Shown piece by piece: positions 1,427 through 59,210 of a stretch of DNA of 64,000 nt. The stretch is from contig JAUVNS010000019.1 in the NCBI GenBank assembly GCA_030599585.1, positions 16,404-80,403 on the forward strand. Reading direction: 5' to 3'. Source of the stretch: Promethearchaeota archaeon (GTDB lineage: Archaea; Asgardarchaeota; Lokiarchaeia; Sigyniarchaeales; SOKP01). Position 1 is the first letter of the stretch. Each line of letters starts with the position of its first letter. Under the pieces are notes generated by a model. That model saw nothing but the letters and a program-made list of their open reading frames with translations. It ran no database searches and was not told where the DNA came from. Position numbers and translations under genes: made by a program.

Positions 1427-1497
1427 TAATTAATAAAGAAGTTTTAATATTCATTTAACATATTTGTACATTTTAAATTAAAAGAGCGGAATCAAAA

Positions 1498-3228: not shown

Positions 3229-3247
3229 TAAAATAAACTATCATCTA

Positions 3248-3369: not shown

Positions 3370-3383
3370 TTAAGCAAAATAAG

Positions 3384-7727: not shown

Positions 7728-7929
7728 ATTATTTCTTATAGTGGAATTGATCGAATAGATTGATAAAGCGATTAAACAACATATGATTATTTGAGAGAGT
7801 AACATGCGTCTAATGTAGGATTTTTGTGATATTGGAAATTACAAATAATAGATATTTCTCATCAATATTAAAAAAAATAGACCATGCAAATTTATCATAA
7901 AAATTACACAAAACCCGAAGAAAACTTTC

Positions 7930-27300: not shown

Positions 27301-30300
27301 CTTACTCCATCGTTACTCGCAACACTTTGACCGCGAGTAAACCTAGGTGTGTAAGGGCCACTACCTTCTAGAGAAGCTGTGAACAATCCATACTGAACAT
27401 TAGTAGCGCTTGAGGCGACTCCATATTGTCCCGTAATAAACACAACTACTTTATTAGAATCAGAAATTGTTGAGATAGAAGCGCCGTCAGCGTAAGAAGT
27501 GGTGCCAGAACACGTTGTGATGTCTACATCTCTCACAATAATTTCGTTGTCTCCACTTGAACCAATATATTGTAAAATTTCCCAAGTAACTCTACAATCA
27601 AGATCAGTTCCTGCTCTTTGGAAGGTAATAGAAGTTGCGATGTTGTCAGGATTTTGGATTCTTACTGCCCAATTGTCGAGTTCTGAAACGGTTGCCGAAT
27701 TTCTTCCGCCACTGGTTTGACCCATTCCCGTAAGCCGAGTGTTCGTAAGTCGAATAAAGCAAGTAGTAGAATCTTGTCCCGATTCCAAAGTATAATCTAC
27801 ACCTTCGGTAATCGTAATTGTTGTTGAAGAAGCACTAATCACGGCGGTTCCTCGTATAACCTTAAAACTATCTCCACTTCCTCCACCCTCTCCTCCTGAT
27901 TCGATAGAAGAGAAAAGCGAAGCGCCATCCACGTTGCTCGATGTTGTCAAGTCTAAAATTTTATCTTCTCCAAGAATTATGGTTTTGTTCATGTTGTACT
28001 CGTTATAATACAAAAAGCCCTCTAAATCGGTGGATGTAAAGCACACGTCCGATATATGTTCGACAAAATATACTCGGGAATCTGAAGTGGTGTTAAATAT
28101 GTCGTCGTCGTTAGAATCGTATAAGTAAGAGAATTGGTATTTAATAAAAGCCCTGTCGTTGTTGTCAATATTTTCTAAGAACCCTCCGGAAAACCCTATG
28201 TCTTGCTCGGAGTCGCCGTTAATATCTCCAATAAAAATAGACGAATTCTCTCCTAAAACCTTTGGAGTGATCAGTTCCTTATTAATCGTAGTTATTTTTG
28301 CTCTTACATCCCACTTAGTAACTTCTACTGTGGCGTGTATGCTAAACATAGCGTCGTAAGCGTATTGGATAATACCTTTAAGCTCCCATTCGTAGCTTAA
28401 GAAAAAGTCTACGAAATATTTACCAAATTTATATTGAATAAAATCGTATAAATCATCTTCGTTCGTGTGTTTTATGTAATACTTACCGTTTGATTTGTCT
28501 ATATCGTGTTTGGTACCATATTTATCGACAATATACACAGAAACGTAATTAGAATAAAGCGTGTAGTTATTGAACATCTCGTTAACATCAACTCCATCTA
28601 CAGGAGCGTCTGATATATACACGTTCCTCTCCCAATCGAGGTCAAAACTGAGTTCGTTAATGTGGGCTGTTACGCTTTCGTCACCGTCTGGATGAATAAC
28701 ATCGGTAATGTCTGCCGAGAAAGTAAGTTGAGGATTAAGCGAAATTACGCTATCAATTGGGTTGTAAAACATTTGAACGGTCAATTCTTCTATGTCAAAA
28801 AAGGTTTTGGTAGAATATTCGTCGCCAAAATAGTTTTGATCTATTTTAAATCGATACTTCAGTTGATATATGAAATTGTCTTCCGTAAGTCCATCAAAGT
28901 TAATGAAATCTACGGAAACGCGATCGATAAAATAAGCGAAAGTTCTGGCGTCGTTATCGTTGAGATCGTATACCACGTAAGGGACGGATATCCAAACATC
29001 GTTAAAATAATCGTAAAATTCAAGTTCGAGTAAATTAACGTCTTTATACAGCTTGTTGCTTAATTTTTTGTACATGTCTTGGCTATCAGTAGTACCAAAG
29101 AACCAACTTCGGATTTGCGGTATTTCGGTAAACTTCACTACTAAGGATACTGCCTCAATCCTCTGATCTGCGGAAACCGAAAAATTGTGAAGAAATGGTT
29201 GGGTGTCAACGTATTCGTCTTTCTCCCAACTGTCGTAAATGTAAGACAAGTCAACGTTTAATATCGTATCAGGCGTAATTTCTGTATACAGAACAGAATC
29301 TACAAATATTTTGTCTCCAGCTATATGATAGTAATCAGTAGAAAGGACGATTTTGTTCTGATCGTTTTCAGAATCAATGACTTTGACCCTATCTACGCTA
29401 AATGGAGCGTTCAAATGTTCAAAGCCAAACACATAATACACTCCTTGCTTGATCTCCTCAAAAGTAAGAGGAATATTTATCTCCCGACTATCCACTAGGC
29501 TCGGTGGGTTGTTAAACTCTAAATTAGCGTAAAAAAGGTCGTATTCTTCGCTACTTTCAATTATTAAATCGTTTATATTATCTGTCGAATCGGAGAATAG
29601 ATAAAGCCTATCAATAACGAAATCTACCGGTGTGGCGCTTTGGTTGTTGATTATCCTTAATTGAAGGCGAGATTCGAGTAAAGTGGGGGAGAAAGAAATC
29701 TTAAACGTAGTTTCGGTAGTGGAACTTAGCGTAGCTAAGTGGTGATATCCAGAATCGTCTCCGTATAGCAACCAGAAATTAGAATCGTCGGACTCAAAAG
29801 TAATTCCGAGCCAATATTGTTCCACTCCAGTAGTTTCTTGTTCAGGAATAATTTGAGAATCAACCTGTAAAAGATCGATCTCAATTTTAAAGCGACCATT
29901 TTCGATCGTCTCTGGGGTATCGTCTAAGACTAAAGTGGCGTTTGTCCCCAAAAATTTAAGGAGAATCTCGTTCTCTTGACTGTAAAAAGCATTATTTAAC
30001 GTAAAAGTTTGTTCAGTAAAAGATTTAGACACTCCGCTCTCTAGCGTAAACCACGCTTCTGTGTTATAATTATATATGCTAAACGCAATAGACTGCGATA
30101 TATTCGTCCGATACGCGTATTTAAGAACTTTTGTTTCCAAATTAGTATTAAGTTTAATTTTCGAAGTAAACGAAGCGGTGTGATTTTCGTAATATACCTT
30201 TAATTGATCCAGTTCAAACTCGAATGCGGTCTGAGCAGTATTAGATCCTTTAAATCGCACGATAATGTTATATTCCGAATCAAAATAATTATTGTTAATA

Positions 30301-33300
30301 TCTTTTGTTAATTCTGCGGAAAAGCTTCTAGTGCCGTCAATGTTCTCCCACGATTCGGTGTTGTAATTCCAAATATCGAAGCCAAAGGTACTAGCGTCCG
30401 CGCTAGTTGAATACGCGTAATAAAGCTTAATATCTTCGGCATATAACGCGTCTGAAGTTAAGGTTATTTTAGATGCAGCCTCGATTCTGACTTCGAGAAC
30501 TTCCGCGTATGTTATTTCAACGGACACCATATCAACTTGTACATCACCCGCAACAAACCCGAATATTAAGTTTTTAGCGACAAGAGCTACTTCTAAACTA
30601 TCAACAGCACTATCGTCTAGTCCGAGATCAGTCCACTCTACGTTAAATGATTGATAAGTCGTGGTGAGACCTGAGACCAGCTTCTCTGAAGAATAACCAG
30701 TTCCGTCGTGAAACTTTACGAATAATCCAACGGAAGCGTCAGATACGGTCTTAAGCGCGCGAAGTGTAATTTTTACTTTGTATGCTAAATACCCAGAGCT
30801 AAGAGCTACATCGGTATACCTATGGCGATCTATTTTGTAAGGCGACACTGCTCCCTCGGAAGAGATGTAATCACTATCTGCGCTTTGAATTCTATCGTAA
30901 TGGTCTCCCGATTCGTCCCATTGTAGTGGCGAACTATCCAAATTAGGAGTAAGAGTTGTTGTAGAGGGTGTTCCGAAGATATATCTGCTGGTAAAAGTGC
31001 TGAGATCGTCGTCTTTAAACTCTAAGTCGCCTGCTTTATCCGATTCGCCTTCGGCGTAAGTTAAAGCGGACACTTCCAAAAGTTTAAGGTAATAAATTCT
31101 CGAAGAAAAACTAGTAAATTGATCTGATGCTATAAAATTAATAGTGTCAACATCTGCAATTATAAGACTGTCAAAATTAATTGTCGAGCCAGTGGCAAAA
31201 ACATTGTTATTGACGTAAAGAGTACCGGAGATACCGTTAGTATTTTCTAGGTGGCAACTTAAGTAGTAATCCTTACCGGTAATAGAGGGATCGAAATCAA
31301 AAATGATATTTACCAGTTGTCCTCCTAGAATCGTTTCTGAATTAATATAAACGTAATTACTATCGTCCGCGTAAGTGTTCGATATGTCTCCTGTTACCGA
31401 AGAACCGTAGTTTACCGTAATGTCGTCTATATTCTGAATGGTTTCGCTTTGAGTCTGGCTTGGTACGTATTTATAATAATCAGAATTTGCGACCACGGTC
31501 GAATAATTATCGTCTAGAAGATTAAAGTCTCCGTTGTAAATTGCATCGCCTTCGGAAATAACGAAATCCTCAGATTGGCGGGGCACATCTGGACCGTTAA
31601 ATATGTAGTCTAACCCAACACCTGAAGTAGCTTCGGAAGTCAAGGTTAAATAATCGTTGTCGTCGTCGATTACGCTAGAAAGGTCTCCTGTGTGGGTGCC
31701 TTGTTGCTGAGACAAACTATTGAATTCTTTAAGGCTTCCGTATCGGTAATTTTGAGAATTAATTAACGCAAGACCAGTTAGGTCATCGTAACCATATAAT
31801 TCTGTAATATCGGCAAAATGGGGATTATGCATGAAATCGGAAGTCATGTTAACGAATTGAACGCCTTTTTTCGAGGAAGAGAGCTCGATCATGTCGATAG
31901 AAGGACGCTCGTCTTGTAAATCCGCGTCAATTTCGGCGTTTAACACTTCCAGAGCAAATTGACCGTGTAATCGCTTTCCTCTGTGGATTCCTTTAAAATC
32001 TGCCGTAATATTTATTAGAAGTTCTTTTCCCTCTCCAAAACACTCAAAAAGTTTTTGTAAATCTAGACCGGACCCTTTAAGATCAATATCGAGGTTATAC
32101 GTGTCGTATCGATAGAAAACTTGAGCGTAATCTTCGAGATGGAGCGTTCCGAAATAAGTATTACTCCCCGAAACTCGTTGATAAAAGTCTAAATTAACGT
32201 CGTAATCGCTCGAAGATAAAATGTTTGTAACGCTTTCCTTTCCTACAAAACCGCAGGAAAAGTTAAGAATTAAATTTAACCCTAAAAATATCGAATTTTC
32301 GGTTTCTGCTATTGCAAACGGAAATTTCATGGCGCTGTGTTGTAAGAGGTTAATTTTTTCTTCGCGATTATTGTTATCGTTATTATATATCTCGTGAACA
32401 ACTGCCCTGATGTTAGTATATGGGCTTAAATTAATTGATTCTGAAAATTCTATGTAATCGATCGAATTGTCAGAGTTCAAGTGAACGAAATAAGGTTCTT
32501 CGCTATAGAAAGAGTAATCTTGCTCGAAATTCTTAGTGAAATAGTCAATTGAACCGTCGCTTTTTACGCCAATTACGTTCTCTACTATTGTTACGTTCTC
32601 AAAGTTCCCGTTAGGTTCGTAGTCCTTACCCCCTATTGGCGTCAAATCGCTCCAAACTTCCATAGTAAAATTAAATTTCTCGTAATTTAAGATTGCAGTA
32701 AAAGGTAGATATAACCTACCCTCAGTTCTGTCAAACCTATAAAAATCGCTTCCGATTGGGTCTTCGGGAGTGGGGTCTACTAAAACAGACACCATTTTAG
32801 GATTTTCGTTAATACCGTACACGTTCACAATTCGAGCAATATCGTCGACAGATATAGATCCTAACTGTCCGTTCAGATCGATCCAAGGTTGCTGTAGAGA
32901 CGCGGGTGCGTCAAATTCTTGCCCGTGTGCGATGTTAGATAGTTGAACGTTGCTATGGATAACATCTGAAGTTAAAAAGGTTCGAGCGTAAGAATTGTTG
33001 TATTTTAGTTCGGAGCTAACTGCCATTCTTCCTTTAGTATCAAAATTTTCGTCGTAGGTCACCTCCCAATTACCTTCGTTAAAAGTTCCAGGTATAACGT
33101 AAGTAAGACCGAGTAAAGTCATATTAGCTTTCCCCCCAACAAAACTGAAGAAATTCTTCAGATCGTACCCTTCAATATCGTTCGAAATTTTAAAGATAAT
33201 CGTACAATTATCGCTTTCTTTGCCATCATTGTTGCCAAAATAGTAATTATGATCGTGAAGTCTTTGAACAGAATCGTATTGATCGTGATCGGTTACAGGT

Positions 33301-36300
33301 TCTTCCATAGGCCACACGAGCTTATCCTCAATATCGTTGTAAGCATAAGCAGTCCCGTAGTAGGACAACCAATTTTTGTTTAAGGTGTCGTATATTTTTA
33401 GGTTAGGGCGCCACGACCAAGAGTTAAAGTTAGCTACCGAGACGTTGTATTGCAATTTTACAATTATATCTGAAATTCCATCGATATTTTCGGGGGTAAT
33501 TTCTGGAAAAGTAAGATTGAACGGCATAGCCGAAACAAATTCTTGTTCTTGCCACCAAGACGTTTCATAAGGGTAAGTGGTATCGGAGAGCCCTTTGCCC
33601 TCGGTATCTATTAATTGGGGCACAATTCTAAAGTCATTTATCTTATTTGTTGCAGAAATAGAATCTCCGTTTTTCGCAAAGTTTGGATAAGTAGCTTTCG
33701 AACCAAACCCAAAGCTAAGAGTGTTAGCTCCAAACGAACTATCAAATATTAAAGAGTTTATCGAACTAATCTGAGGTGCGATTGTTGTTAGCTTTTCTCC
33801 GTTAGAATTAAAGTTCGCATCGGAATCTAAAGAGATTTTATCGTATAAGTTATTTAAAACGTAGAATTCGTAGGAATCTGAAACGGGTAAGCCGTATTCA
33901 GTATTTAGTAGTCTATCTTCAATAGTAACTGGCTCGTCAGAATAATCGATATTAAGAGTAAACCAATCTACATCTAACCAATTAACCCATGTATTTAAAT
34001 AAAAGCCAATGTTTGAAGAATCAAGTTCTAAACTATCTGTATTCCTATAAATGTCGGTTAAGTCAAATTCGTTATCGCAATATATCATGGGGTAATCGGA
34101 GACAAGGTAAGAACCGGTATATACTTCCCAAAATTCTGATGGTATTTGAAAATTATCAAAAGACGATCTAATCTCGAACCTGTGCGCTAAGGAGGTAAAG
34201 AAATTGTTAGTAATTTCAAAGCCGGAAACTTCTTCCGATTCGCTTCCTCTAATTCTAAACTTATACGCAAATTCCATATCAGAAATATATTCACGATTGG
34301 GAATCGACTCAAAAGAAAACGACAATTCGTTGCTCGGTTCCATAAAATTACTTCTTCGAACCCACTCGTCATCATAATACTTGGTTAAAGCAGGTAAATT
34401 ATATCCCTCCTCGGGATAGGCTTGACCGTTAATAACAACCCAATTGGCGTCGCTTACAGAATCTACAAAAAATGTCGAACTTTCTACTCCTTCAAGAGGG
34501 TTCATTTGATAGTATTGATACGCAGGATCGAAATCAGGACTGCTAGTAGAATAATCCGTATAAAAATCTATATCTGACCATAGCCGTAAATCTTCGAATA
34601 CGGAGTCAAAATCGTACAGATTTTCGTTAAAACAGTAAATAATTTCTCTGTCCGTAGATGCGGTCGAATAGGTAAGGTTGTTATTTGTTTCTCCGGCACC
34701 AGATACGATTGCTGAATCCGTATAATCAAAGTCATCCCAGCTATCAATTTTGTGAAACACTTGATTTTTAATTTCTAGAACTATTATTTCTCCGCTATCA
34801 ATTGCGATTTCAGGATACAAATCAGTAATTACTCCTGGTAAAGAAAAACTCGAAATTTCGCTTCCATCAATGAAGAATTTCCACGTAGGTATATCGTTTA
34901 CCTTTTCACGAGTGATCTCCGCTAAGTGAGTCCCTTCTTCAAGTTGGGCTGCGTCGTAAGAATAGAAATTAGACCCCCCTATCTTAAATTTTACCGTTGT
35001 TGGACTAGTAGGGAGTTTGTTAAAGGTAAATGAGGCTCGATATTTCGCGTTGTCTGAATTATCGATATAATCTAATTGAGGATATGTTTTTGCTCGGTCG
35101 TTAAGCGAAATCTTTCCAGATTTTAATAACACTCCGCCGTTTTCTGCTTCTTCGACATTTCCTAACCCTCCTAAATCTAAGTTTATGTCGTTTAAGTTGT
35201 CTTTATCGGTTAACACAACGCATTGAAATTGCCTAAGAATAAGCTCAGAGGCACCTGTGGACCCATCTAATAATTTTAAAGTATCGCCTGTGTATCCTTG
35301 TAGTTTTACAGTAAAAGTAATTTTTCCATCTGAGACAAAGGAATTACTCAATTCCGATTTGTCAACCTTAAGGTAATCGTAATTGTAATCGTGTTCTTCG
35401 GATACGTCGTCGTTTGGATAGAAAGGGGTTTTTTGTTCGTATAAAAACTTAAATACGTCGTTCTCGTCTTGAGTGAAAAGACCTTCGCTAATGTATTCTG
35501 AATCGTATATGAAATTGGCTTCCAAGGCAGCATTACTGGGTTTTAAATACTTATTGCCGTATGTGCCATAGTCTATTGCCGTGGAATATATCGATTCTCC
35601 AAAATTAATCGTTTTATATTTCACTAACTCTTTAGTAGCGTGATTTAAATCTAGGTTTGTGGTTTCAAAACTTTGTCCAAAATTAGTGTTATCTAAAGAG
35701 ATGAAAATGTTGTCTTCTTCTCCAACATCAAAATTGTCAAACGATTGTTCTCCAGGAATAGGATATAAAACATGCCCAAACGAAGTAGATATCAAAATAC
35801 CTTGAATGGACTCAGCGTCCTCATTATGATCTAGTTGAAATTCAACTTTTAGGTATAAATCATCACCTGCGTTATCTTTTTCTTTCCAAACGCTCATGGT
35901 GTAATCTTTTTGAGTTAATGCGTCTTCAAAACTTGATGCTGAAGGATCGTAGCTACTTCCGTCTTGATCGATAAACGTAACATCACTTATTGTTGGTTTA
36001 TACGCTGCAACGTTGTCGATCCCGAATATTGACCCCATTTCTGCGGTTAACGCCGAATAATCGATGAGATCTTGTCGCATGTCGACAGTGGTAGATAAAG
36101 TTAAGTTTTCTGCCCATACAGAATCAATATACGAATTTTCGTACAAACTTTGGAAATCGTCAGGGCGGTTAAAATCTTGACCCGTTTCGAATTGGGCTAA
36201 ATCAGAACTCATAGAAACTTCTAATCCTGAGGTGGAAATCGTACCGTAATCCATTCGGTTGTTCCCAAACTCAGTGAGCAAGGATAAGTCAGACACAGAA

Positions 36301-39300
36301 TTAATTCCGCTCTTCCAAAAATCGCCTTCAGATAGAATATATGGATGTCCCGTGGTAACATCGTTAAATTGATAGTTCCAATCTTCGTATTGGGTTCCGT
36401 AATAGAAAGTCCAATGGTTAAGATCGTTTGGATTAAGTAATTGAAACGCAAGGTTATCTGCTTTTATTTGAGAGTTTTTAGCAGCTATATTACTTACGTG
36501 TTCGTATTCTGCCGTGTTATATTGAGCCGATAATAGCCCGGAAGCTTCCGCTATACTGGCTTCGTAGAAATACCTTACCTCGAAGTACTCATCGGCGGCG
36601 TTTTCCCAGTGCCACTCGTTTTTGTAGCATATAAGTTGTTTCTTATCGCCGCTAATCTTATAACCAGACGGATTTATTTCTCTTAACGAGTCGTATATAT
36701 AAGCACCACCTCCAGTGGCGTAATCTCGATATTTATCGAATTCGTACACGTTGATAACTTCTATTGCGGGATAGTTCGATAATGGAACTAAAGCCGTATC
36801 GGTATCGTCAGGTAATTGGTATTCAAACATATCCCAGCTTCTAAACGTGTCAACTGCGTAAAATACTGGAGTTGCAGAAAGTGATATCACGCCTGTATCT
36901 ATGGTAGTTTTCCAAAGTCCTTGAGAGGAGGATATAAGAACCGATTCTAAGTAATCTTCTTTAGAATTAACGATTTGGAAAATTCTAAAGTCGTAGATTT
37001 CGGACGCAAAAGATTCTAACCCCGTATCAAGGGAAAATTCGGTTTTATACCAGTTGTCTGTAGAGGTATCTAATATGTAATAAAATACTTTATCGTTTTC
37101 GTTGTATGACTTCATAGAAACGCCAACAACTACGACTTCTCCAATCTCACACATAAACGAGTTTATTTCTATAATTGCTCCCTTTATTGCGGTTTCAAAA
37201 ATTATCAGCGAAGTTGGTGTTAAGTCTTTATTAATGGAATACATCGACGAGTTAATTATTCCGTTAAACGAAGGGTTAATAGTTCCAAAATACAGCTTAT
37301 CGCCAATAAGGCGCATTGTACTATGAACTTTCTGACCGTATATCTGGGTGGCGTCGCTCACTTGAGTTTTCGTTAAGGAAGCATCAAAATCAAGTTGCGC
37401 AACGTAGTTGACTTCGTTAGAGGAATTACTAACGCTCACATACATGGTAAAGGATTGGTCGCTCGTGAAATCTAGTAAAAAGTCTTTGAAAATCGCGTCA
37501 GGAAGTGGTTCGGGTAAAGTAATACTAGAAACCGTTGTTGTTTGATTTAAATAATACGATAAAGACGAACTATTGTAAATATAGAAAGAAATTGCATCGG
37601 AATCGGATAATTTGTTAAATATTACTAAGTCTGTATAATTATCGTTGTTTAAGTAATAATTTGATATTTTCTTTCCAATTAACGAAAATCCTAAGGGAAT
37701 GGTGAAATTAACGAACCATTGATTGTTTGAATCGTTAAAAGAATATACGTATATATCACCATTTAGCCCGACTAAGAACGGATGTATAGCTCCGGTATCG
37801 TCAAAGGTTCCATAAGAGCCGTAGAAATAATTACTTGGCTGTTGATGGTATGTATAATTGATAGGAAGATAAGATCGTTGGTTTGGCATTAATTTATAGA
37901 AAGTGTTGTTGCTCACCTGCCAATCGACCGTAAAATACCCATTAGAAGTGGTTGAAGTGCCCATAGGAAGCCAAATTTGGTCGGAATAATCGTAATAACT
38001 CATATCAACAGTTACGTCAGAAGTATTCGCGTTATCGATCCAATTGTCAACAAAACCGCTAAATTGGATCGGATTTTCGGTGTAATTAGTGTTGCTGCTA
38101 TGATATACAATATCGCCAAAATTTAACGCTCCTTCTAAACTACTAGAATCTTCGTTGAAAATATAGAGGTTTTGTATGACAACGAACATATTATCCGCCT
38201 TATCGTAAATTTCTGCTTTGACGTGGGTGAGACCTTCCGCAAAATTTTTCCCGTTTAATTCGAATTGGTAAGTTGGAAACGGAATTGTAAGCGGATCAAA
38301 AACCATTTCGCCTAAATAATAATTACTGGCGTTGAATAACTTAATTTTTTCAATGTTGTGCAAGAATCGATAGCCGTGCTTCACGTAATAGGACTGACTA
38401 GTAGCGTTAAACACGTATCCTGGAGTGAAGTATAACGTTTTGTGATCATGATCGGAACTGCCAAACATAATGTTTCCGGCGTCTCCGGTCTTACCAAGCT
38501 CCCAGTAAATACCACCGTTGGTCGTATTAGCGGTAAGTAGACCAAAACTGCCTTCTGGTGTAAGGTCGTCGTAATGAGCTTGATATCTTTGTGTGACAAG
38601 AGTATTGCCGTATAAATCTTCTACTTCGAAGTAAAACTCAAATCGATCCCTCGTGTATTTACGAGGAAAGTTGTAGTGGGGATCGTCGTTCTCGAACCCA
38701 AGCAGATTGTCTGTCCAACTCTCGGTCATCCCACTCAAGAAAGCAGATATGTCTAAGTTATTTAATACCCAATTTTGCTGGTCGTAAGAAAACGATGCAT
38801 TCCAACCAAAATTGCACTTAATTCCTTTTAAAATTATATCTGTAGTAAGGTAGTTCTTATAGCGTTCGTCAAATGTAATTTCTTGCGTTACGCTATCAAA
38901 AAAGAATGGGATCGAAACACCGTCTAAAGTAACTGCCTCTTCAATTGCGTATACATTCAAATTGAGGAGTGAAATTACCTCATCGTTCCATAGAATCGAA
39001 TTTTCGTAATATTTACCCGTTGCGTTCGTCCAATAATCGTGGAAAGAATAAGTGGTACGATTAGTTGCTAAATAAAGATAATTGGATGAGTTCCAAGAAT
39101 TCCTTCTCATAATTACGTTAAACCAGTTTTTATTACTACCTTGTTCTTCGTAAATTGCAGGACTTGCTAAGGTTTTTAGTACGAATATCTTAACTGACGT
39201 AATCTGAGAAATGTCTGCTAATTCGAGTTCTAAATCTGTATTATCGTTAAAATAAATATCGTTGCTAAAACTATGGCTATTCATTAACTTGCCCGTTATC

Positions 39301-42300: not shown

Positions 42301-45300
42301 CAAGAAACATCAGCGTCCAGGTAATACATGTCAATGACAGGTTTATAATCTACTCTGGCTTGGTCTAAAGTCATACTATGTGCGGAAGATTGAACTGATG
42401 TGTATACTCTCATCAATACTTTATTAGTGCCGTCTTGGTAATACTCGTCGTAAGTCGCTAGGCTTTGCGAAAAGCTGTTACCCATACCATGCCATCCTGG
42501 AGCGTCCCAATCGTATATTTCTGCCGTCCCACCGTTTCCTGCGTAATAAACCCAATCCATCGAGTATACGTTACTCGGGATCATGCTAAACTCGGCATAG
42601 ATTCTGTGATTCGGAGTTCCTCGGGTAAGAACGGTTTCTACCGAGTCCACACTGACAGTATAAGCGCTACCTGTAAGTTTAAACCAGGCAACGTAAACTC
42701 GAAGGTCGTTTACTTGGCTTTGGGTTAACGATAATCCTGACCACGTGAAATACGATGTCCAAGTCCAAGAATCGCCCACAATTGCGGTTTTAGCTGACGA
42801 GTACACACCCGTACCTATTCTCCACCTTACTGAAACTCCACAAAATGCTGGAGTTGATTCTTTTATTCGTGCTCTGATCTTAACGTCAGTTACTTCAGTA
42901 CCTGCGACCCAAGAAGGGTTTTGGATGCCAACTTCGCAATTTGTATTTTGTCCGGATAAGTAATCGCTTCCCGTACCGGTATCGTCAATTTTCTCGTGAG
43001 CAGAACCGCTAGATGGATATAACGTCCAAGTATTTGAATAAGTATAATCTGGACGGAGGGTTGGATAATTTGCAACGTTAGTGAAATATTTCCCAGAATT
43101 TATCGTAGTTTCGTCCGCATCGTCACCTAAAAGATCTCCGTAAGGAGTAGCTAAACTGCCGTAGGTGAAAGAGAAATCTCCAAGTTGAGCAGGTACTTTT
43201 GCTAATTGGGAACCGCCAGATGGTACGAGCTCGGAAGAAATTGTGGAATTGGTGTCCCCTGATGAAGTTAAATTTCCATAAGGAGCCGAATAATCGCCTA
43301 AAATCACGCTAAAATCGCTCGGTTGACTGGGGGTTAAATGATCGTTATAAGATACGAATTCCGAAGAAAGATCGCCGTTACTAAATGAGGAACTAGTAAA
43401 GGCGGAATTGTAATTTAAGTTCCAGTTTGTCCAATCCTCAGATAAAGTTTCAGTAGGGAGTGATGTGGTCATGGATAAAGGATTCATAAAGAACGAGTCG
43501 TTATATCCATCTGGAAAGTAAAGATGACGCATATAAGAACTCTGAAAAGAACTAAGAGAGTCAGCCCACAAAAGCTCGTAATAAGGTTCGTGCTTTTCGT
43601 AGTTGTAATCAAAATCAAACCCTTCTGAGGTAAATTGAGTAGCTGAACTGTCTATTTTTTCTAAATTTCCACTCCAGTCTGAGCTTCCTTGTTCAAGAGT
43701 GAAGTCTTGAGGTTGAGATGGAATAACTGTAATGCTATTAAGCGTTAATGAATGGTCTCCAACTTTTCCTTGGGTCCAGCTTTCAATTCCTATTAAGCTA
43801 CCATCATTGTTCCCTGTTGCGTCGTAAATTACGAGTCCATTTCCTTCGTCAAATTTCCACCAAGTACGCTCGGTGTTCTCCCCTACATTATAGTAATTTT
43901 TATCGATTTGGAGGTCGTTAATGTAAATGTTAGTATCTAATCCTAACGAGACCGTAAATGGAATTAACAGTTCTATAGATTGGGATTTTAGATCGGAAGC
44001 CTTGATCTTTAAAATTTGCGTATCTACCGTTTGGTCTTCGAAATCAAAATCTATTGGATCGAAGGTAATTAAATGTTGAAAGTATAGCCCTTCCGCTTCA
44101 GGGTCAATTTTCTCAAAAGTATACACTTTATTCCCAACTGTCAAGTTTAAAACTTTTAAATCTTGAGCTATTGGGTAAATTTTAAAATAAAAAGGTTCAA
44201 ATATATCGTAAATACGATCAAAAGCGTAATTCTCTACGTACAGGTCACTGAAATAATTCTGGTCGTTGACAAAAGAGAATAGCAATTCGTTTCCATCGTT
44301 TCCAGAGGTATCGTATCCTACTATTTTAAAATCTACGTCTCCATCGGGCATGTATTTAACGTTCCATTGAAGAGTATCATTTGCGCCATAAACCGTGAGA
44401 TCGTCTCTCCAACCTTTTCCGTAGTTATAGGACAGTCGATAAGATTTGAAATCGTTATTAGAAGAACTTATTGTGCCGTTTACAAGCCCGTCGAACTCAG
44501 AGGTCGCTGTCCAAGAACCACTCGCTTGCTGAATTTGATATAAAACATCGTTTGGATTGGTATCCACGGTAATCGATGGGCCGTCAAGGTCGAGTTCTAG
44601 ATCATTTTTCGTAAGGTTAAGGTTATAACTTCCAAATAAAGGATAGGTAACTTTCAATTCTACAACAATGTTAAAAAGAAGCGACTCCTCCCAAGGCAAA
44701 TTAATAAATGGCGCTGAAAAGGGTGAGTAAGTAGCGTTGTTTATTAAAGTCCAATTAGCGTATCCCTGTTCTACCGCCCAAAATTTCGCGTAGTCTATCC
44801 TAGATTCTATTACATCAGAAATTACCAGCGAGATTTCGTCTTTTTTACTTACTGTATTGCTAACTTTTATAGCGTTTTTAAAAGGACTAACAATCGTTTT
44901 GTTTTCGTAGGTATCAAAAGAACTAAAAGCTCCGTTATACGCCTCCGATATTGCGTACCACGTACCGTTTGGAACCGATTCGCTCGAAATATAGTAAGCA
45001 AAATCTCCGCTAGAATCTGATAATTCTACCATTTGAGTCCAATTATCTTTGTTTTGAGTGGTAGGAACGTCGTTGTACATATAATAAATTACCTTAGTAA
45101 GCGAAACTCCGTTGTTGTTGGTGGTAGTAAACTTAATATCGCTGTTGACTTCTTGACTGTCGGAGATCGGCTCCCAATCGTTAATTCCTATCGAAAATGC
45201 TTTGCAAGTGATATTTGGAGGGTTATTAATTACGGTAAGATTGGAAACAGTAAGACTTCCTTGCGATCCCTTGTTGTTTTGGAACACTGCTTTCAGTTCG

Positions 45301-48300
45301 TATATAGTATCGTCGACTAAATTTGTGGTGTTCCAAGTAAAATTGAAGTAAGCAAAATTATTTTCGAAACTATATTGCGAAACGTTGGCAACCAAATCCC
45401 ACCCTGAATAATTACCCATATTTTTGTAATTGTAATACAAAGCAGCCCATTCGAAATCGTTCCCGATCGCTTTAACTTCCACGGGATATAACCCAGAAAC
45501 TACCGTAAAAGATTCTACGTTAACAAATTCGGGCAATATATCCCCTTGAACGAATTCAAACTTTACGCTATCTATGATCACCCCCCATCGACTCCTAAAT
45601 TCTTTCTCCGATGTGATATAAAAAGCGTCTTTCAACTGTGCTGTGAGTTCCAGGAATAAATAATCGGTGTCAGTAACTATGTCGTCCCCGTAAATGTATA
45701 TTTTAATAGGATCTTTGGTATAGTAATATTTTTGACCTAAATCGTTTGTTACGTTGCTAAAATCGTTAAAATCAAATTCTTGTATTTTAATAGAAGCGTT
45801 TGAATATTCAGAAAGAATTTTTGAGCTGAATTGATTGAATATTTCTAATTTAAACTTTAATAATTCTGATTTAAACTCGTCGGTAGCTTTATCTCGATCC
45901 GTTCCGTTTTGATACTCAAAAAATGGGTGAACGGTTATAATAGATCTTAAATAATAATCTAAGGTATCTTCAGACTCTAAATTAGGCGTTACTATTCCAA
46001 CCCGACCGGTAGAATCTGGACCGTCGATTAAGAGTTCGTCTTGATACGAATCGTAATAACCAAAACAATCGGTTAGATGAGTGTTTATAAGATTGAGGTA
46101 GTTCGCAGGACAAGTATTTTCAACTGTTTTAATTAAAACTGGTAAGTAGTTGTAGTTGTTCCCTTCTTGAGACGCCGGATAATAAGCATCGCTTGTGGAC
46201 GAAAAAGCGATAAAATCGTCTCGATTATCTATTTCAATGTCGAAGTCGCTGAGTAAGTTCAAATCTGCTCCTTTGCTTACCTTTTCAAAAAAGCCGTAAG
46301 GGTTAGATTCCTTAGTAAGCAAATACAACTGATTGTTTGCAGACCCGTTTCTCCAATCAATCGACAACTTTAGACTGTTGAAAATAAGATTGACGCCGTT
46401 TTGAATGTTATACGAGTTCAAGTCGTATGTTTTTACCTTTACGTTTAACACTAAATAAACTACTTGCTCGTTGCTTTCGTATAAATCTTTAAGAAGAGCA
46501 AAAAGAGCCTGCTTTTCAGTTTGTGTAAGTTGGAAATATTCTTCTTTGTTGTGAATTTCAACTGAGAAGTTCTCTAAGTTAAGCGTATAATATAAGTTTC
46601 CAAAATTTTTAGACCATTTAGAGTTGAGATTAATGTCTTGGAGAGAATACCCGGTCCAAGAATTGTATCTAATTTCGTTAGAGATAACTACGTCGGGATT
46701 GTCGTCGCTTTCGACCATAACCATTAATTCACATTCTAAGTTAGAATATGGAAGCGAGGACATGTGTTCGAATTGGTCGAAAAATAAACTAATGGCGTCA
46801 AAATCGATTAGTAAGTCAATTGAATTATCGTTAGATTGTTCTAGATATGGATCCACGAAAGCTGTAACATTTTCTAAATTCAATTTGTTAGAAATCAAAA
46901 ATTCGCTTTGAGCGTAAGTGCTTGACTCGTGTGACTTAGTTAACACGCCAAACGACTCCGAAGAGAAATTAGTTGGATTAAGTTTGAAAGAAAGGTATAC
47001 GTTATCTAAACCGACTTGATATTGGTCGAGGTCGGCAGTCTTGTTTAAACTCCAATCGTCTTTTACTAAGTTAAACCTTAAATTGAAGTGTTCCGTGAAG
47101 TTAATAGGGTAGGGGAATTGTACTTCGAAAGGGTAGATGTGATTTTGAACTTTGGTATCAGTTGCGTTAATTTCTGAAAACGATAAGGAAGTTTGCGATA
47201 GGTTGTAAAAATACCTTAAGTATTCGGGGTAATAGGTAGCGAGGTTATTCTCGACCCAATTATCCAAAGTTTGAGCGTTCCAATCTGTATCTAAAATTAC
47301 GCACTGAGTACCTGCAAATTCTAAGGAAACGATATATCGCAACCTATCTTCTGACTCGAGCAGGTCGTTATCAAACACGCTTAAGTCTAAATCGAAGTAT
47401 ACGCTCATATTAGCTGAAAATGCACTATCGGTAAAAAGGATGGGCATGAAGTCAGCAGAAAGCGTGCTAAAAGAGTTGAGATCGGCTCTCGCGCACGAAG
47501 TATATTCTACTGTCCAAGAGTTCGAGTTATTGGTTGAAAAGGTCCAAAACACTCCGTTTGACCAAAACGCGTCTGGATTTTGCTCTTCGGTACTTTCTTC
47601 GCTTTTCACGTAAAAGGGTCCGGTGAACTCTTGAGTCTCTAAATCGAAATACATATACTGAATTTTCCACTTGCTACTTTCCCCAGTTTTTCTGGAATTC
47701 ACTTCGTAGGCTATAAAAAGAGTGTCATTAAACCCTAAATTGACAATGGGGTTAAGCATTTTATAAAAATCGTAATCTCCAAAATTGATTGAGTCAGAAA
47801 TAGTTTCTACTATATTAAACTGACCGCTACTACTATTATACTGAGTGTGTTTAAAAATTAAGTCGCTATACGAGCTATTAACTTGACTGGAGTATACTAC
47901 GCTGATTAAGTCGTCGTTATTATATACGATGTCTGCTTGTCTGGAAATCGACTCGTCTTCTAGACCTCCTGAGACAAAAATATCTTCTTGAAACTGAAAG
48001 TTATCGTTGGAGACATCTAAATAAATTTGACGATCAGTAGCGTTAGTAAATCTTTCGAATATATACGCAATTTCGTTTTTTACGATTGAAACGTCAATTA
48101 TTAAGCTATTAGGAAGAATATAATCTTCGAGCGAGTACTTAACGTAAAAATAATTTTCTGAAGGAAGTTCGGAGGAAAACGATATGTTAAGATTATCGTT
48201 TCCGTAAGCACCTATTAAAGACCAGTTGTTCCTACTCAACCGAGTTGCGAAGCGTTCAATTTCGTAGGAGGGAAGTGGTGAGGTCGAGTAGTAAATATCC

Positions 48301-51300
48301 TTGACTTTTTTAATAAGAGTTACGTTATCGGCAATAAATGATTTAAGCCCGTAGTTGTCAATCCCGCTATAAAAAATGTTAATTCCAAAGTTAAATTGTC
48401 TTGAATCGTACACGTCTTGAAATTGAAGGTCATCGGATAACACGATTTGATCTTGATCAAATAATATGCTTTGGTCTCCGAATAATTTTACAAATTCCAA
48501 TTCTGAATTAAACAAAACTTTTGTTTGGCTCAAGTGATCTTCAATCGATATAGAATTTATCTGAAACACTCTCTCGCTTGAGGTCTGGTTGTAACTTACG
48601 AAAATAGTAGTTGAGTCTTCCAACAAAAGCGAAGTGTTGTAACAGATTCTAGTATTTATTTGAGGAGATTCAAGATCCCCGTTGTAGTTTATTGCGTTGT
48701 TTGACCCTGGAATAGTCCAAGAATAATTTAATTTTAGCATGTCTAATTGAAAGTCGAAATAAGAGGAATTTTCACCGCTTAATTTTGCTTTTACTTCAAA
48801 ATTTGCGTTATAATAATCAGAACTCGTAATTGAATACAATCCATCAAAGAACGAAGTGTGGACCGAAGAATTTACGAGATCGTATTGTTGGGAGTTGTAG
48901 TTGTATAACGAAATATTAATAGTTTGGCTGATGTTTGTTCTATAACAATACAACAACTCCGCGGAAGCTAAATCGTATTGAACGGGTTTATTTCCCATTT
49001 CCAAATCGGAAATAAAAGATAAATTGTTAAGAGTCGAGCTTGGGGAAGGCCGTTCTGATTCGAACTTTATTTTCAAATTGGTTATGTTAGTTTGAGACGC
49101 GGAGAGTCCAGACCAAGTGTAGGTTTTCCATTCAGGCGTTGCTCCCATGTTTAAAGGTTTTATTCCGAGCCAACTACCGCAAAACACGTTTATAGTTGAT
49201 TCAATCGAAGATTCGTTCCCATATACCTTTATAACAATTTGATCCACAGTCCCGCCTTGCACATCAAGATAACTCATGTCAAATTCGTCTGTGATATTTC
49301 CAGAACCGGTGCTTATTGTATAAATGAAATCGCTCGAAATAGTGGGCGCAGTAGGATCCTCTACTACATCGTTAATAAGTTCGAAATGATCGGTCCCAGT
49401 TGTTACTTCCCAATCATTTACAACATCGGAGTCTGGTCTTACAATACCGTTGTCTTGAACAGTACCACCACTGGCAGAATGCGAAAAAGAAGTTTCGTTA
49501 GTAATTATATAATGGGCAAATCCTGCCGTGTGTCCAACTTCAGTATCTTGATAACGATCTTCTTGGAAGTACGGTTCAATCTGAGTAGAGGTGAATGGAG
49601 AATCTTCCCAATTAGCCCAAGCACCATTGTTTCCGTCCATGCGGACGTATTTCGCTACGCCCCAAGTAGGAGTCTCTCCAAAGTTATGGTCTTCAAGGTT
49701 GTTGTGAGATTGTTCTTCGATCGTGTCTGCTGTTATTCCTGATTTAATGTGGAGTCCGTTTATCGAAAAATCGCCTTGTTCAATTACTATATAACTAATC
49801 GTCTCTCCAGGATGATTGTCTTGCGGAGTGCATTCAGCAGAAGTCATTGAAGTGTAAAACGCCGAAGTAGAGGGATGAGTGGTTCGGGAACCGCCATTTG
49901 TCCAAGATTCGATCCACTTACTTCCGGTTGCTGACGCGTTTTCAGTAGTTACAGTCGTGAGAAAATTGGCGGTTGTAGAACCCCAGAAAGTAGTATTTAA
50001 GGTAACTTGGTCGCCTGCCGAACCATAAGTATTTGGTACGACGGTTTCGGTATAGTGGTTACCTGCCTCAATCTTAGGCCAACCTGCTTCTTCCCATTCT
50101 CCCGCTTCAACTACCACTAAATATATATTGCCATGACAAGTCGCATTAGAACCGTATATATAATCCGGAACGCCAACTTTTGTCTGACAGCTCGTAGAAG
50201 TAACCGAACGGATTTTAACACCTACCGCAGTATCAGCAGAATTAAATCCTGAAGAAATTTCAAGGTTCGCAATAACAACGGGTTCTACATAGGTATTTTG
50301 AAATGATACATCTACCCAAGTAGTCTGATTTACTCCAGTAACTTTAATGGTTTCGATTTGGAATCCATTTCCACTTCCTTCTGAATATTCGTAAGAAACA
50401 TCACCGTATGCTGCGTATATTCTACTCCCTATCGCTTCAGTTTCATCGTAATCAGGAGTGAACGTTGAATAATCGTTGTCTCTATCGACAATCGAGCCTA
50501 ACCAGTCAGAAATTCCGCTTAGCATCTCAAAATCTGAAGGTTGAGCTGGAACATCCTGCGACGAACCCGTACCACCACTACCACCAGCAATTACATCGTT
50601 TATGGCAATGGGCGTTGAAAAGGAAGTATCTGAGTAAGAAGAACTTAATTGGGTATAATACAAGTTTTTAATAGTGTCGTTAACATCCTCGTTAATTCTA
50701 CTGCCTTGGGTAGGATTAGTCCAAGTAACCTCTTCGAAAGCGACGTGAACTATACATTCTTGGTGAATTAACTCTAAATTTTGATCGTATATATTACCGA
50801 GAGGGGTTAAAGTAATTTCTGGAACCATCATAGCGGTTTCGTCTAAATTTCCCAGTTCGTAATTAGTTACATTTATCACATCTTGTACGGTAAAATCTTC
50901 CAAGCTGACTCTTCCGTAGACTATTGACCATTCAGATTCGCCGTTTGAGTGAATGTCTTGATTTCTTTGTTGCCAAGTCACATATAGATCGGTAGAACTT
51001 AACGCAATAGCGGGCGAAAGTTGGTATATATCGTCTTCGCCTAGATCAAATAATCGAACGGGCGTTGACCAATCTCCTTCAGGTCTGTAAGCGTAAGTGA
51101 GGTAAATTTTCCACATACTTTCAGTGGCGTATCGAGCAGCAAAAACTATAATAACAAGTTCGTCGTTGGATACTATTTTTGGAACAACATATCTCTGCCG
51201 TATGTCCTCTAAACTACCGTCTGAATCTCCTACGCTCGTAAATTCGTCCTTAATAACGCTCTGGAAAGTGTTAGATATGTTAATAGGGGGGTTAAGGCTT

Positions 51301-58790: not shown

Positions 58791-59210
58791 ATGAGCAAGC
58801 AAATTATAAGAAGACAACACGTTGTACCTCAATTTTATTTGAAATCTTTTGCCGTTCAGACTAAATCTGGTCACTTCAAAATATTTTGTTATTTCAAACA
58901 ACAAAGAAATAAAATAAAAAGACTTGAAGTGAAAGATGTTGCTGTTAAGAAATTTTTCTATGATGATAATAAACTCCCTCAACCAATTGAGAGTTATTTA
59001 TCTTTTTCAGAAACTGATTTATCTAGAACTTACCATAAAATTGTAAAAGAAAAATCTATAAATAACCTAAATGAGAAGGAAAGAAAACATCTAGTTTACC
59101 TTACATACATACAATATGTACGAACAGAATATACAAGAACTAAAACAGAACAGATATTGAAGGATGCTATAGAAAAAGAGAAATCTAATTACTTGAATAA
59201 TCATAATTAA
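58791..59210 (+). pseudogene. DUF4238-family protein, N-terminal fragment
   Basis: RQHVVPQFYLKSF and KFFY...IESYLS..E..QYVRT signatures. Ends after 139 aa without the C-terminal half. Confidence 0.7.

What the first reader, a model, noticed from the sequence alone, without database searches (positions are those of the whole stretch)
29598..50586. Three homologous nested branches, each capped by the same family of tip domain
Seen: the N-half / tip / C-half pattern recurs at ~50586-48700, ~43736-41010 and ~31730-29598. N-halves: PAQPSDF, PSQPQDF, PRQSEDF. C-halves share YRTNI(S/T)QxI-x-S-x-(Y/W)(N/D)Y...EVxxK..GxN...L(D/E)MLK. Central tips share (R/T)PxxD..W..H..I..D(Y/F)I...V(K/V)I..W(S/T)xLxxxxxx(V/I)xxL (VRPDSD ~49445, LRPDYT ~43058, LTPNLD ~30953). 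Inference: a reusable adaptor domain acts as an insertion platform that displays diverged adhesin or receptor-binding tips on a branched filament, possibly setting target specificity.
Basis: partly seen in the sequence, partly recalled or inferred. Interest (0 to 1): 0.75.

Follow-up and report, generated by a model that had tools for sequence, protein, structure and literature searches.

The report
Nested jelly-roll side-arms on giant protein
Three side-arms of a 14,550-residue, probably Asgard-archaeal, surface protein are built like Russian dolls: a sugar-binding-type domain is split open to hold copies of itself and, innermost, a shared tip domain also found in tailed viruses. Relatives carry different arms at the same sites.

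Summary
The window holds one 14,550-aa ORF (10647-54299, minus strand). All three regions carry the same three elements:
- a ~40-aa "N-half" (P-x-Q-P-x-D-F...G-D-L..D..Y);
- a ~155-aa tip domain (T);
- ~100-aa "C-halves" (YRTNISQ...LDxLKV).

Profiles built without this protein find all of them (E 1e-5 to 1e-43).

N and C are two parts of one ~145-aa jelly-roll domain:
- In 11 database cases N abuts C directly.
- In 46 proteins N and C behave like matched brackets.
- The branch-1 N-half docks on its C-half 470 residues away (ipSAE 0.82, best control 0.00).
- In AlphaFold models, single-domain CBMs align over residues 7..918 of branch 2.

The branches are cassettes. A 50%-identical relative lacks branches 1 and 2 and carries its own two-level arm elsewhere.

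T has a CBM/galactose-binding-like fold (Z ~10). It also occurs as ~180-200-aa stand-alone proteins in clusters labelled tailed viruses.

The architecture is supported. A binding or specificity role is inferred only.

Recursive nesting is known from cyanobacterial RNA polymerase Si3. This scan has already noted nested jelly-roll stalks in another Asgard genome.

The parts
10647..54299 (-). Giant ORF of 14,550 aa. Six hydrophobic helices lie at aa 142-424, followed by a long acidic region and a basic C-terminal ~550 aa.
   Evidence: The only Pfam hit in the whole protein is Laminin_G_3 at aa 4431-4578.
48690..50573 (-). Branch 1 (aa 1243-1870): N, ~320 aa of unknown domains, T, C. It is flanked by Gly/Ser-rich linkers.
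   Evidence: Absent as a block from the 50%-identical relative P0001; the junction reads GGSG|NAINYNGDLE.
50436..50561 (-). Branch 1 N-half (aa 1247-1288).
   Evidence: HMM E 4.6e-11. It docks on the branch 1 C-half with ipSAE 0.82 against a best control of 0.00.
49467..50435 (-). Branch 1 extra cargo (aa 1289-1611), family unknown.
   Evidence: No Pfam hit. It sits between N and T.
49029..49457 (-). Tip domain T1 (aa 1615-1757).
   Evidence: HMM built without this protein: E 3.3e-43. It is 45% identical to a T at another site in P0141.
48711..49028 (-). Branch 1 C-half (aa 1758-1863).
   Evidence: HMM E 3e-26; docking.
43737..43868 (-). First strands of the LamG-like host domain (aa ~3478-3521; W-W-K-F-D-E-G-N-G ... 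S-L-T-L-N).
   Evidence: The same motif precedes the NNTCC module of P0003, whose Laminin_G_3 part follows that module. This is an inference from motif order.
40998..43736 (-). Branch 2 (aa 3522-4434): N n n N N, then T, then C C c c C. Up to five nested levels.
   Evidence: The AF2 model of the inner NNTCC has pLDDT 90.2 and pTM 0.70. Single-domain CBMs align over model residues 7..918 of the whole branch. Levels 2 and 3 are modelled poorly.
42615..43073 (-). Tip domain T2 (aa 3743-3895).
   Evidence: HMM E 1.5e-27. Jelly-roll fold, Z 10.7 to IFT25 (2yc2) and Z ~10 to CBM36/CBM6/CBM4-2.
40566..41009 (-). Remainder of the LamG-like host domain (aa 4431-4578).
   Evidence: Pfam Laminin_G_3, E 8e-16, profile positions 4-145 of 151.
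29598..31730 (-). Branch 3 (aa 7524-8234): (n) N, an uninterrupted side domain, N, T, C C c.
   Evidence: It is conserved in relative P0141, but its interior is more diverged (33-36% identity) than the backbone (55-57%).
30501..30968 (-). Tip domain T3 (aa 7778-7933).
   Evidence: HMM E 2.3e-20.
29847..30491 (-). Two canonical C-halves of branch 3 (aa 7937-8041 and 8040-8151).
   Evidence: HMM E 1.8e-18 and 1.8e-20.
26700..27911 (-). Fourth variable insertion (aa 8797-9200), with no N/C adaptor and Gly-rich linkers at both ends.
   Evidence: Absent in P0142. Replaced by other cargo in P0146 and P0141, and by a four-level N/C branch in G279.

Best explanation
Each 'branch' is a recursive domain-in-domain insertion.

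Architecture:
- The adaptor is a ~145-residue beta-jelly-roll domain of CBM4/16/22/29-like shape.
- It has a permissive loop about 40 residues from its N-terminus. Its first two strands (the 'N-half') pack against the first and last strands of the remaining ~100 residues (the 'C-half').
- That loop receives either a further copy of the adaptor or a cargo domain. The sequence therefore reads N..N-cargo-C..C, and the fold is a stack of jelly rolls joined by two chain crossings per level.
- The stack forms a stalk standing out from a loop of the main chain, with the cargo at its far end.
- In this gene the cargo of all three stalks is one family of ~155-residue CBM/galactose-binding-like jelly roll (T). 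T also occurs as small stand-alone proteins in clusters labelled tailed viruses.

Evolution: the stalks are cassettes. Relatives have none, shallower, deeper or differently loaded ones, at the same or other backbone loops.

Inferred, not shown: the protein is anchored in the membrane by its N-terminal helices, and the stalks hold ligand-binding (probably glycan-binding) tips away from the fibre axis. The faster-evolving distal parts would tune what is bound.
For: N and C are one domain:
- 11 cases in 9 database proteins have N directly abutting C (gap -6 to -1). N-to-C gaps otherwise cluster at ~130, ~200 and ~400 aa, while N-T and T-C gaps are ~0-2 aa.
- Read as brackets, 225 N/C tokens in 46 proteins leave 29 unmatched. 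In 2000 shuffles the mean was 94.6 and the minimum 61. T lies in an N-T-C context 31 of 48 times, against a shuffle mean of 7.3 and maximum of 17.
- Of 31 modules around a T, 17 are NTC and 8 are NNTCC.

Docking of two separate chains, the branch-1 N-half (aa 1243-1292) and C-half (aa 1752-1870):
- Score 0.82, best of 3 controls 0.00. This mark was reached by 58 of 80 solved complexes and 2 of 110 mismatched pairs.
- The runs agree in at least 88% of contacts, and the partner's pLDDT is at least 80.
- N residues 14-20 pair with C residues 9-14, and N 36-38 with C 99-101.
- My own alignments were used, and split jelly rolls resemble solved folds, so part of the pass may be from memory.

AlphaFold models:
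- AF2 of aa 3650-4090 (NNTCC) gave pLDDT 90.2 and pTM 0.70. The N-halves are beta strands at pLDDT 83-97. CBM29 (1gwk_A) aligns 115 residues over model range 2..434.
- In the whole-branch model, ~22 of 50 top rows are single-domain jelly rolls spanning model residues 7..918. Examples are CBM16 2zew_A (Z 10.2, rmsd 3.2, 129 of 146 residues) and phi812 baseplate 9euf_H (Z 11.2).

Cassette behaviour:
- P0001 (50% identical, collinear) lacks branches 1 and 2. It has its own NNTCC of 440 aa at giant position 2440-2450.
- P0029 has branch 2's architecture without T.
- The loop at aa 8796/9201 is empty, or filled with four different cargos, in five relatives.

Tip:
- T fold: Z 10.7 to 2yc2 and ~10 to CBM36, CBM6 and CBM4-2.
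- T matches 177-199-aa proteins in clusters labelled 86-100% viruses (Uroviricota), TM 0.68-0.74, rmsd 2.1-2.3 over ~150 residues.
- The branch interior diverges faster than the backbone.
Against: - All structural evidence is predicted; no coordinates or contact maps were available to me.
- Levels 2 and 3 of branch 2, and level 5 in the whole-branch model, came out at pLDDT below 50. Five levels therefore rests on counting divergent segments and on homology to P0029/P0018.
- 29 N/C tokens remain unmatched. Some proteins show runs of C without detectable N (P0006, P0015, P0052). These may be truncated ORFs or divergent N-halves, or they may mean that C-halves can fold alone.
- No Pfam CBM family matches N, C or T by sequence.
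- No ligand, localisation or expression data exist, so the binding role is inference.
Confidence: 0.75

Rival explanations
1. Beads on a string. The C-halves are autonomous ~100-aa domains in ordinary tandem arrays after a tip domain. The N-motifs are an unrelated short linker repeat, and nothing is nested.
For: The C-halves lie in direct tandem (aa 3896-4086, 7937-8151) and each has its own leading strand. Several database proteins show C runs without detected N. This was my first reading.
Against: - Intact N+C domains exist with no gap.
- N and C follow a bracket grammar far beyond shuffles.
- The N-half docks on a C-half 470 residues away: 0.82 against 0.00 for controls.
- Single-domain CBMs align over residues 7..918 of the branch-2 model, with 120-139 aligned residues. 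That is more than a 100-residue C-half can supply.
Confidence: 0.07
2. The nesting is real, but the stalks are structural rather than binding. They would be spacers or struts that set the thickness or lattice of a surface coat, or shield the cell from viruses, with the jelly rolls having no ligand.
For: - Some branches have no T or other cargo (P0029).
- No binding-site residues were identified.
- Jelly-roll folds are common scaffolds, and Z ~10 is a fold match only.
- The cyanobacterial Si3 nest acts by docking on its own enzyme, not on an external ligand (PMC10895346).
Against: - The cargo at the distal end varies between close relatives, while the stalk base and backbone are conserved. That pattern is expected for a part under changing selection.
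- T and the adaptor most resemble carbohydrate-binding modules and phage receptor-binding or baseplate modules.
Confidence: 0.15
3. The internal similarity is chance or compositional in a long, Ser/Asp/Asn-rich protein.
For: Tip-to-tip BLAST similarity within the protein is weak (E 0.02). Leave-one-out HMMs built from only two tips barely find the third.
Against: Independent HMMs find all the elements at E down to 3e-43, and nothing in reversed or shuffled controls. 136 database proteins share the modules.
Confidence: 0.01

Closest known systems
Si3 insertion of cyanobacterial RNA polymerase beta' (eight sandwich-barrel hybrid motifs, several made from distant stretches of chain; described as a six-level nested architecture; PMC10895346, PMC13114784)
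   Same: One small beta domain family is inserted recursively into copies of itself. This gives an elongated multi-level arm that leaves and re-enters a host loop, and its depth differs between lineages.
   Different: - The fold differs: jelly roll here, SBHM there.
- The host differs: a giant membrane-anchored surface protein rather than an enzyme's trigger loop.
- Here the innermost position holds a different cargo domain.
- Here whole arms are present, absent or swapped between relatives only ~50% diverged, and at several sites in one protein.
Type B carbohydrate-binding modules with beta-jelly-roll fold (CBM4, CBM16, CBM22, CBM29 for the adaptor; CBM6, CBM36, CBM32 and the galactose-binding-like superfamily including IFT25 for the tip)
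   Same: Predicted fold. Adaptor: Z 10.1-10.2, rmsd 3.2-3.5, 122-129 residues. Tip: Z 10-10.7, rmsd 2.9-3.0, 113-121 residues.
   Different: There is no sequence match to any CBM family in Pfam. No sugar-binding residues were identified, and binding was not tested. Known CBMs are not reported to nest in themselves.
Laminin_G_3 / LamG-like jelly roll (PF13385), the host of branch 2
   Same: aa 4431-4578 match the profile at E 8e-16. P0003 has the same order: LamG first strands, NNTCC, then the rest of LamG.
   Different: The domain is interrupted after its first strands by 913 residues. The Pfam profile covers only the part after the insertion, so the split is inferred from motif order.
Small (~180-200 aa) hypothetical proteins in clusters labelled tailed viruses (Uroviricota) in the ESM Atlas, and stand-alone T proteins from metagenomes
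   Same: Same domain as the tip. Sequence profile hits run from residue ~1 to ~155. Structural match: TM 0.68-0.74, rmsd 2.1-2.3.
   Different: They are free-standing and end in a short G-V-x-x-A-N-I-x-K-V type repeat. Their function is unknown. There was no match in the GenBank phage collection.

Membership tests
Recursive self-nested domain insertion (architecture of the Si3 kind) | The host domain's sequence is interrupted, and its two parts still form one fold. | tested here: met
   - Intact N+C versions exist.
- Docking scored 0.82 against 0.00 for controls.
- Single-domain CBMs align across model ranges 2..434 and 7..918.
These are predictions, not a solved structure.
Recursive self-nested domain insertion (architecture of the Si3 kind) | The inserted domain belongs to the same family as its host (self-nesting). 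| tested here: met
   The same N and C HMMs hit successive levels. NNTCC occurs in 8 modules, and NNN..CCC and a six- to seven-fold case (P0058) also occur.
Recursive self-nested domain insertion (architecture of the Si3 kind) | Three or more levels in this gene. | tested here: inconclusive
   In branch 2, levels 1, 4 and 5 are supported. Levels 2 and 3 are divergent segments modelled at pLDDT below 50. They are conserved in P0029, P0018 and P0092.
Si3 / SBHM family itself | Sandwich-barrel hybrid motif fold, located in the RNA polymerase trigger loop. | tested here: not met
   The fold matches are jelly-roll CBMs, and the host is a giant surface protein. It works like Si3 in architecture only.
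Carbohydrate-binding modules (CAZy CBM families) | Sequence membership in a defined CBM family. | tested here: not met
   N, T and C have no Pfam CBM hit. CBM96 was found only in relative P0001, at another domain.
Carbohydrate-binding modules (CAZy CBM families) | Beta-jelly-roll fold. | tested here: met
   Z 10-11 with 110-139 aligned residues at rmsd ~3 A.
Carbohydrate-binding modules (CAZy CBM families) | Binds a carbohydrate. | not testable with these tools
   This needs glycan arrays or binding assays on the isolated T and N+C domains.
Laminin_G_3 (PF13385), host of branch 2 | Profile match above the gathering score. | tested here: met
   58.9 bits against a cut-off of 27.6, E 8e-16, aa 4431-4579.

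The most novel reading that the evidence does not exclude
Asgard archaea diversify giant surface proteins with a modular 'stalk-and-cargo' system. Self-nesting jelly-roll stalks of adjustable height would be moved, deepened or reloaded at a few conserved loop hot spots, by exchange among the several giant paralogues in a genome. The tip domain is shared with tailed viruses. The arms would then be the variable recognition surface in partner attachment or in a virus-host arms race. That would be a protein-level diversification mechanism not described for archaea.
Probability: 0.25. Interest if true: 0.8.

Novelty: new variant of a known kind. Interest (0 to 1): 0.66.

Why it matters
Multi-level nesting of a domain inside copies of itself is rare. 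A survey of 48,551 insertion events singles out cyanobacterial Si3, with six levels, as the complex example (PMC13114784).

This case differs in three ways:
- The fold is different, and the three building blocks are unannotated domain families.
- The depth runs from 0 to about 5-7 levels.
- The cargo changes between relatives that are still ~50% identical, so the steps of growth can be read directly.

It also gives a first handle on otherwise 'dark' giant proteins of Asgard archaea. This one has a single Pfam hit in 14,550 residues.

It points to exposed, fast-evolving, CBM-like tips as candidates for how these cells touch partners, surfaces or viruses. For protein engineers, the adaptor is a natural scaffold that tolerates large insertions at a fixed loop.

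Tried and rejected
- **Whole-protein BLAST self-comparison** gave only the self hit. Fragment BLAST was needed.
- **Pfam scans of 4850-aa pieces** found nothing relevant and missed the Laminin_G_3 hit later seen in shorter pieces (against 86, 88).
- **PHROGs:** no family for T, N+C or the stand-alone T proteins.
- **Rfam and tRNA scans** of the window: nothing.
- **The search for related loci** with the tip+C alignment in genome contigs: no confirmed relative.
- **tblastn of a stand-alone T protein (P0086)** against the GenBank phage collection: no match.
- **Search for giant (5500-17500 aa) relatives of aa 6950-8950:** none. The 'shorter' search found P0141-P0146.
- **Foldseek against the PDB** with the three-domain model gave only low-TM multi-domain matches (Cry protoxins, reelin, phage baseplates) and added little.
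- **AF2 of the whole branch 2** did not resolve levels 2, 3 and 5. MAFFT had placed the homologous rows on levels 1 and 4.
- **G279:C47**, picked as a possible orthologue because its frame is 14,557 aa, proved to be a paralogue with ~24% backbone identity. I fetched only its last 11,467 aa.
- **Literature searches** for giant proteins of Asgard archaea, nested insertion/matryoshka, and Asgard LamG surface proteins found no description of this architecture. The 'aloposon' giant genes of Heimdallarchaeum (PMC8813620) were not compared.
- **My first reading,** collinear tandem domains, is rejected.


Full report
**What is there**

The finding lies inside a single open reading frame of 14,550 codons on the minus strand (window 10647-54299). 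Residue i..j maps to bases (54300-3j)..(54302-3i).

The protein has six hydrophobic helices at aa 142-424. A very long acidic, Ser/Asp/Asn/Tyr-rich region follows, then a basic last ~550 residues. Scanned in 1000-residue pieces, it has one Pfam hit in all: Laminin_G_3 at aa 4431-4578. Scans of 4850-residue pieces had missed even that.

The neighbouring genes encode WD40-TIR, NUDIX, LRR, NadA and a beta-helix protein. The closest relatives that carry a name come from Promethearchaeota, Helarchaeota, Thorarchaeota and Odinarchaeota MAGs and from Loki's Castle sediment. The organism is therefore very probably an Asgard archaeon. That is inferred from these names, not shown.

**Check of the observation**

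All quoted motifs are at the stated places.

Within the protein alone:
- the C-halves are significantly similar (E 3e-10 to 4e-8);
- the N-halves are marginally similar (1e-3);
- the tips are not (0.02).

A profile of tip plus C-half found 136 proteins among 1.84 billion representatives, 57 of them at E<=1e-10. From these I built HMMs of three elements:
- N, ~40 aa, consensus D-V-P-S-Q-P-D-D-F-T-F-T-N-G...G-D-L-E-Y-I-D-N-N-Y;
- T, ~155 aa;
- C, ~100 aa.

With this protein and its nearest relative excluded from the HMMs, the giant still scores as follows:
- three T: 3e-43, 1.5e-27, 2e-20;
- six C: aa 1758-1863, 3897-3989, 3992-4086, 4332-4434, 7937-8041, 8040-8151;
- six N: aa 1247, 3523, 3653, 3700, 7570, 7747.

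Reversed and shuffled controls gave nothing below E 6.

**Are the branches nested?**

My first reading was an ordinary row of domains. Five lines of evidence overturn it.

1. *Intact domains exist.* In 11 places in 9 database proteins the N element runs straight into the C element (overlap 1-6 residues), giving an uninterrupted ~145-residue domain. Otherwise the N-to-C distance falls in classes of ~130, ~200 and ~400 residues, while N-T and T-C junctions have ~0-2 residues. Something is inserted at one fixed point.

2. *Bracket grammar.* Around a T, 17 modules read NTC and 8 read NNTCC out of 31. NNN-(126)-CCC, NNN-(392)-CCC, six N with seven C (P0058), and N-(135)-C also occur. Read as brackets, 225 N/C tokens in 46 proteins leave 29 unmatched, against a mean of 94.6 and a minimum of 61 in 2000 shuffles.

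3. *Docking.* The N-half (aa 1243-1292) and C-half (aa 1752-1870) of branch 1 were given as two chains, each with its own alignment.
   - They dock with a score of 0.82; the best of 3 controls was 0.00.
   - This mark was reached by 58 of 80 solved complexes and 2 of 110 mismatched pairs.
   - The runs share at least 88% of contacts, and the partner's pLDDT is at least 80.
   - The N-half lays one strand on the first strand of the C-half and another on its last strand.
   - The alignments were my own, and a split jelly roll resembles solved folds, so this shows that the two parts fit as one domain. It does not show binding in a cell.

4. *Model of the inner branch.* AlphaFold2 of aa 3650-4090 (NNTCC, 86-row alignment) gave pLDDT 90.2 and pTM 0.70. 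Both N-halves are beta strands at pLDDT 83-97. CBM29 (1gwk_A, 141 residues) aligns 115 residues over model range 2..434.

5. *Model of the whole branch.* In the model of branch 2 (926 residues; pLDDT 69 overall, above 90 for N1, N4, T, C4 and C1), about 22 of the 50 best structural matches are single jelly-roll domains. They align 120-139 residues at ~3 A over model range 7..918. Examples are 9euf_H (Z 11.2), 5w6h_A (Z 10.4) and CBM16 2zew_A (Z 10.2, 129 of 146 residues). A 100-residue C-half alone could not give that, so the first ~40 and last ~100 residues of the branch form one domain around ~775 inserted residues.

Limits on the nesting evidence:
- No coordinates were available to me.
- Levels 2 and 3 of branch 2 are divergent and poorly modelled. 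"Five levels" rests on segment counting and on their conservation in P0029, P0018 and P0092.
- Some database proteins have C runs without detected N.

**The branches are cassettes**

*Relative P0001.* P0001 (6168 aa, ~50% identical, collinear with giant aa 395-6812) lacks branch 1 exactly. Giant aa ~1243-1870 are missing between G-G-S-G and N-A-I-N-Y-N-G-D-L-E. It also lacks branch 2. There the whole region differs: 294 residues with a CBM96 hit stand against 1135 residues. P0001 carries its own 440-residue NNTCC at the position of giant aa 2440-2450.

*Branch 2.* P0029 has the architecture of branch 2 without the tip. P0003 has a two-level NNTCC at the same point of the same LamG-like host.

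*Branch 3.* It is present in P0141. Its interior (T3 33%, inner C-halves 34-35%, side domain 36%) is more diverged than the backbone (55-57%).

*A fourth variable site.* This lies outside the finding, at aa 8797-9200, between Gly-rich linkers:
- P0142 has nothing there.
- P0146 (83-86% identical in the flanks) has a different 417-residue cargo.
- P0141 has ~560 residues ending in a T that is 45% identical to T1.
- A paralogue in another genus (G279) has a four-level N n n N-cargo-C c c C arm in the corresponding interval.

*Distribution.* The window's own genome has three giant frames with C-halves: 14,552, 13,906 and 13,858 codons. Among 301 sampled genomes of the phylum, 23 have the C-half. 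All but one of these are in the window's own family, mostly in frames of 11,600-20,600 codons.

**What the parts look like**

- *Tip T.* A galactose-binding-like / CBM jelly roll: IFT25 2yc2 (Z 10.7, rmsd 3.0, 121 residues), with CBM36, CBM6, CBM4-2, CBM32 and Cry toxin domain III at Z 9-10.
- *Adaptor.* Closest to CBM16, CBM29, CBM4 and CBM22, and to phage baseplate or tailspike modules.
- *Sequence families.* Neither matches any Pfam or PHROG family by sequence.
- *Stand-alone T.* T also exists alone in ~180-200-residue proteins. These begin at the R-P-x-G-D motif and end in short G-V-x-x-A-N-I-x-K-V-like repeats. In the ESM Atlas the nearest structures (TM 0.68-0.74, rmsd 2.1-2.3 over ~150 residues) are clusters labelled 86-100% viruses, Uroviricota. 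A tblastn against GenBank phages found none.

**How it most likely works**

Supported by prediction and comparison: the adaptor is a jelly roll with one permissive loop after its first two strands. Whatever is inserted there leaves and returns side by side, so adaptors can be stacked inside one another into a stalk with two chain crossings per level and the cargo at the far end. Stalks sit in loops of backbone domains. For branch 2 this is a LamG-like domain, split after S-L-T-L-N.

Inferred: the protein is held in the membrane by its N-terminal helices. The stalks present CBM-like tips sideways from a long fibre, and the distal parts, which change fastest and are swapped between relatives, set what is bound.

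I put the architecture at about 0.85 and the binding role at about 0.4. The DNA mechanism that makes and moves the cassettes is unknown. Gly-rich linkers at the junctions and several paralogous giant genes per genome make recombination between copies plausible, but I did not test this.

**Comparison with what is known**

Recursive self-nesting is documented for the Si3 insertion of cyanobacterial RNA polymerase. It has eight SBHM domains, four of them built from distant stretches of chain (PMC10895346). A survey of 48,551 insertion events calls it a six-level nest and presents it as the complex example among mostly single-level cases (PMC13114784).

The present case works the same way in architecture but is not a member of that family, because fold and host differ. 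It adds a distinct cargo and cassette-like polymorphism.

My literature searches found no description of it in Asgard giant proteins. PMC8813620 reports many unrelated giant genes in Asgard genomes but not this design.

This scan has noted the same design before on other DNA: nested jelly-roll stalks in a 20,619-residue Asgard protein (e1-5562254). A frame of that same length is among the hits in G207, and it may be the same protein. A further note, e1-5505231, describes the same opener and closer motifs. Those are AI notes. The Si3 lead came from them, and I checked it in the papers.

**Verdict**

- Observation: confirmed.
- Interpretation: supported for the architecture, untested for the function.
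- Novelty: a new variant of a known kind.

Noticed in passing
window 26700-27911 (-), giant aa 8797-9200: A fourth variable insertion with no N/C adaptor, flanked by Gly-rich linkers. The same backbone loop is empty in P0142 and holds unrelated cargo in P0146 and P0141. In the G279 paralogue it holds a four-level nested arm.
   Followed up: partly
window 10650-12299 (-), giant aa ~14000-14550: The last ~550 residues switch from acidic (D+E 14-21%) to basic (K+R 16%). One hydrophobic segment lies at aa 13698-13718. There is no Pfam hit. Earlier notes of this scan read this region as a nuclease-like toxin tip with an immunity gene at 9829-10602. I did not test that.
   Followed up: no
own genome G000: C23:30432-30740 and C24:374461-375999: Two further giant open frames (13,906 and 13,858 codons) in the same genome carry the C-half. 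One has a single copy and the other five in tandem, so the genome has at least three paralogous giant genes with this module.
   Followed up: partly
window 49467-50435 (-), giant aa 1289-1611: About 320 residues of beta-rich sequence lie between the N-half and the tip of branch 1. They have no Pfam hit and no detected relative apart from a possible counterpart in P0011 (N-(249)-T-(159)-C).
   Followed up: no
window 39750-54299 (-): Technical point. hmmscan of a 4850-residue piece did not report the Laminin_G_3 domain that scores E 8e-16 in a 213-residue piece and 1.7e-14 in a 1000-residue piece. Very long queries can hide real domain hits.
   Followed up: yes
window 2-5063 and 6210-7805: Flanking genes encode a WD40-TIR protein, two ~560-aa proteins with C-terminal NUDIX domains on opposite strands, and an LRR protein. 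The set looks like defence or signalling genes next to the giant gene.
   Followed up: no
window 58791-60768 (+): Two short ORFs match the N- and C-terminal parts of DUF4238 (E 6e-21 and 1.5e-5). They lie in a low-GC (26-27%) stretch with few long ORFs and may be a broken gene.
   Followed up: no
P0053, P0074, P0076, P0085, P0086, P0129 and similar proteins: Stand-alone tip-domain proteins of ~180-195 aa end in two or three copies of a short G-V-x-x-A-N-I-x-K-V-like repeat. The nearest ESM Atlas clusters are labelled tailed viruses.
   Followed up: partly
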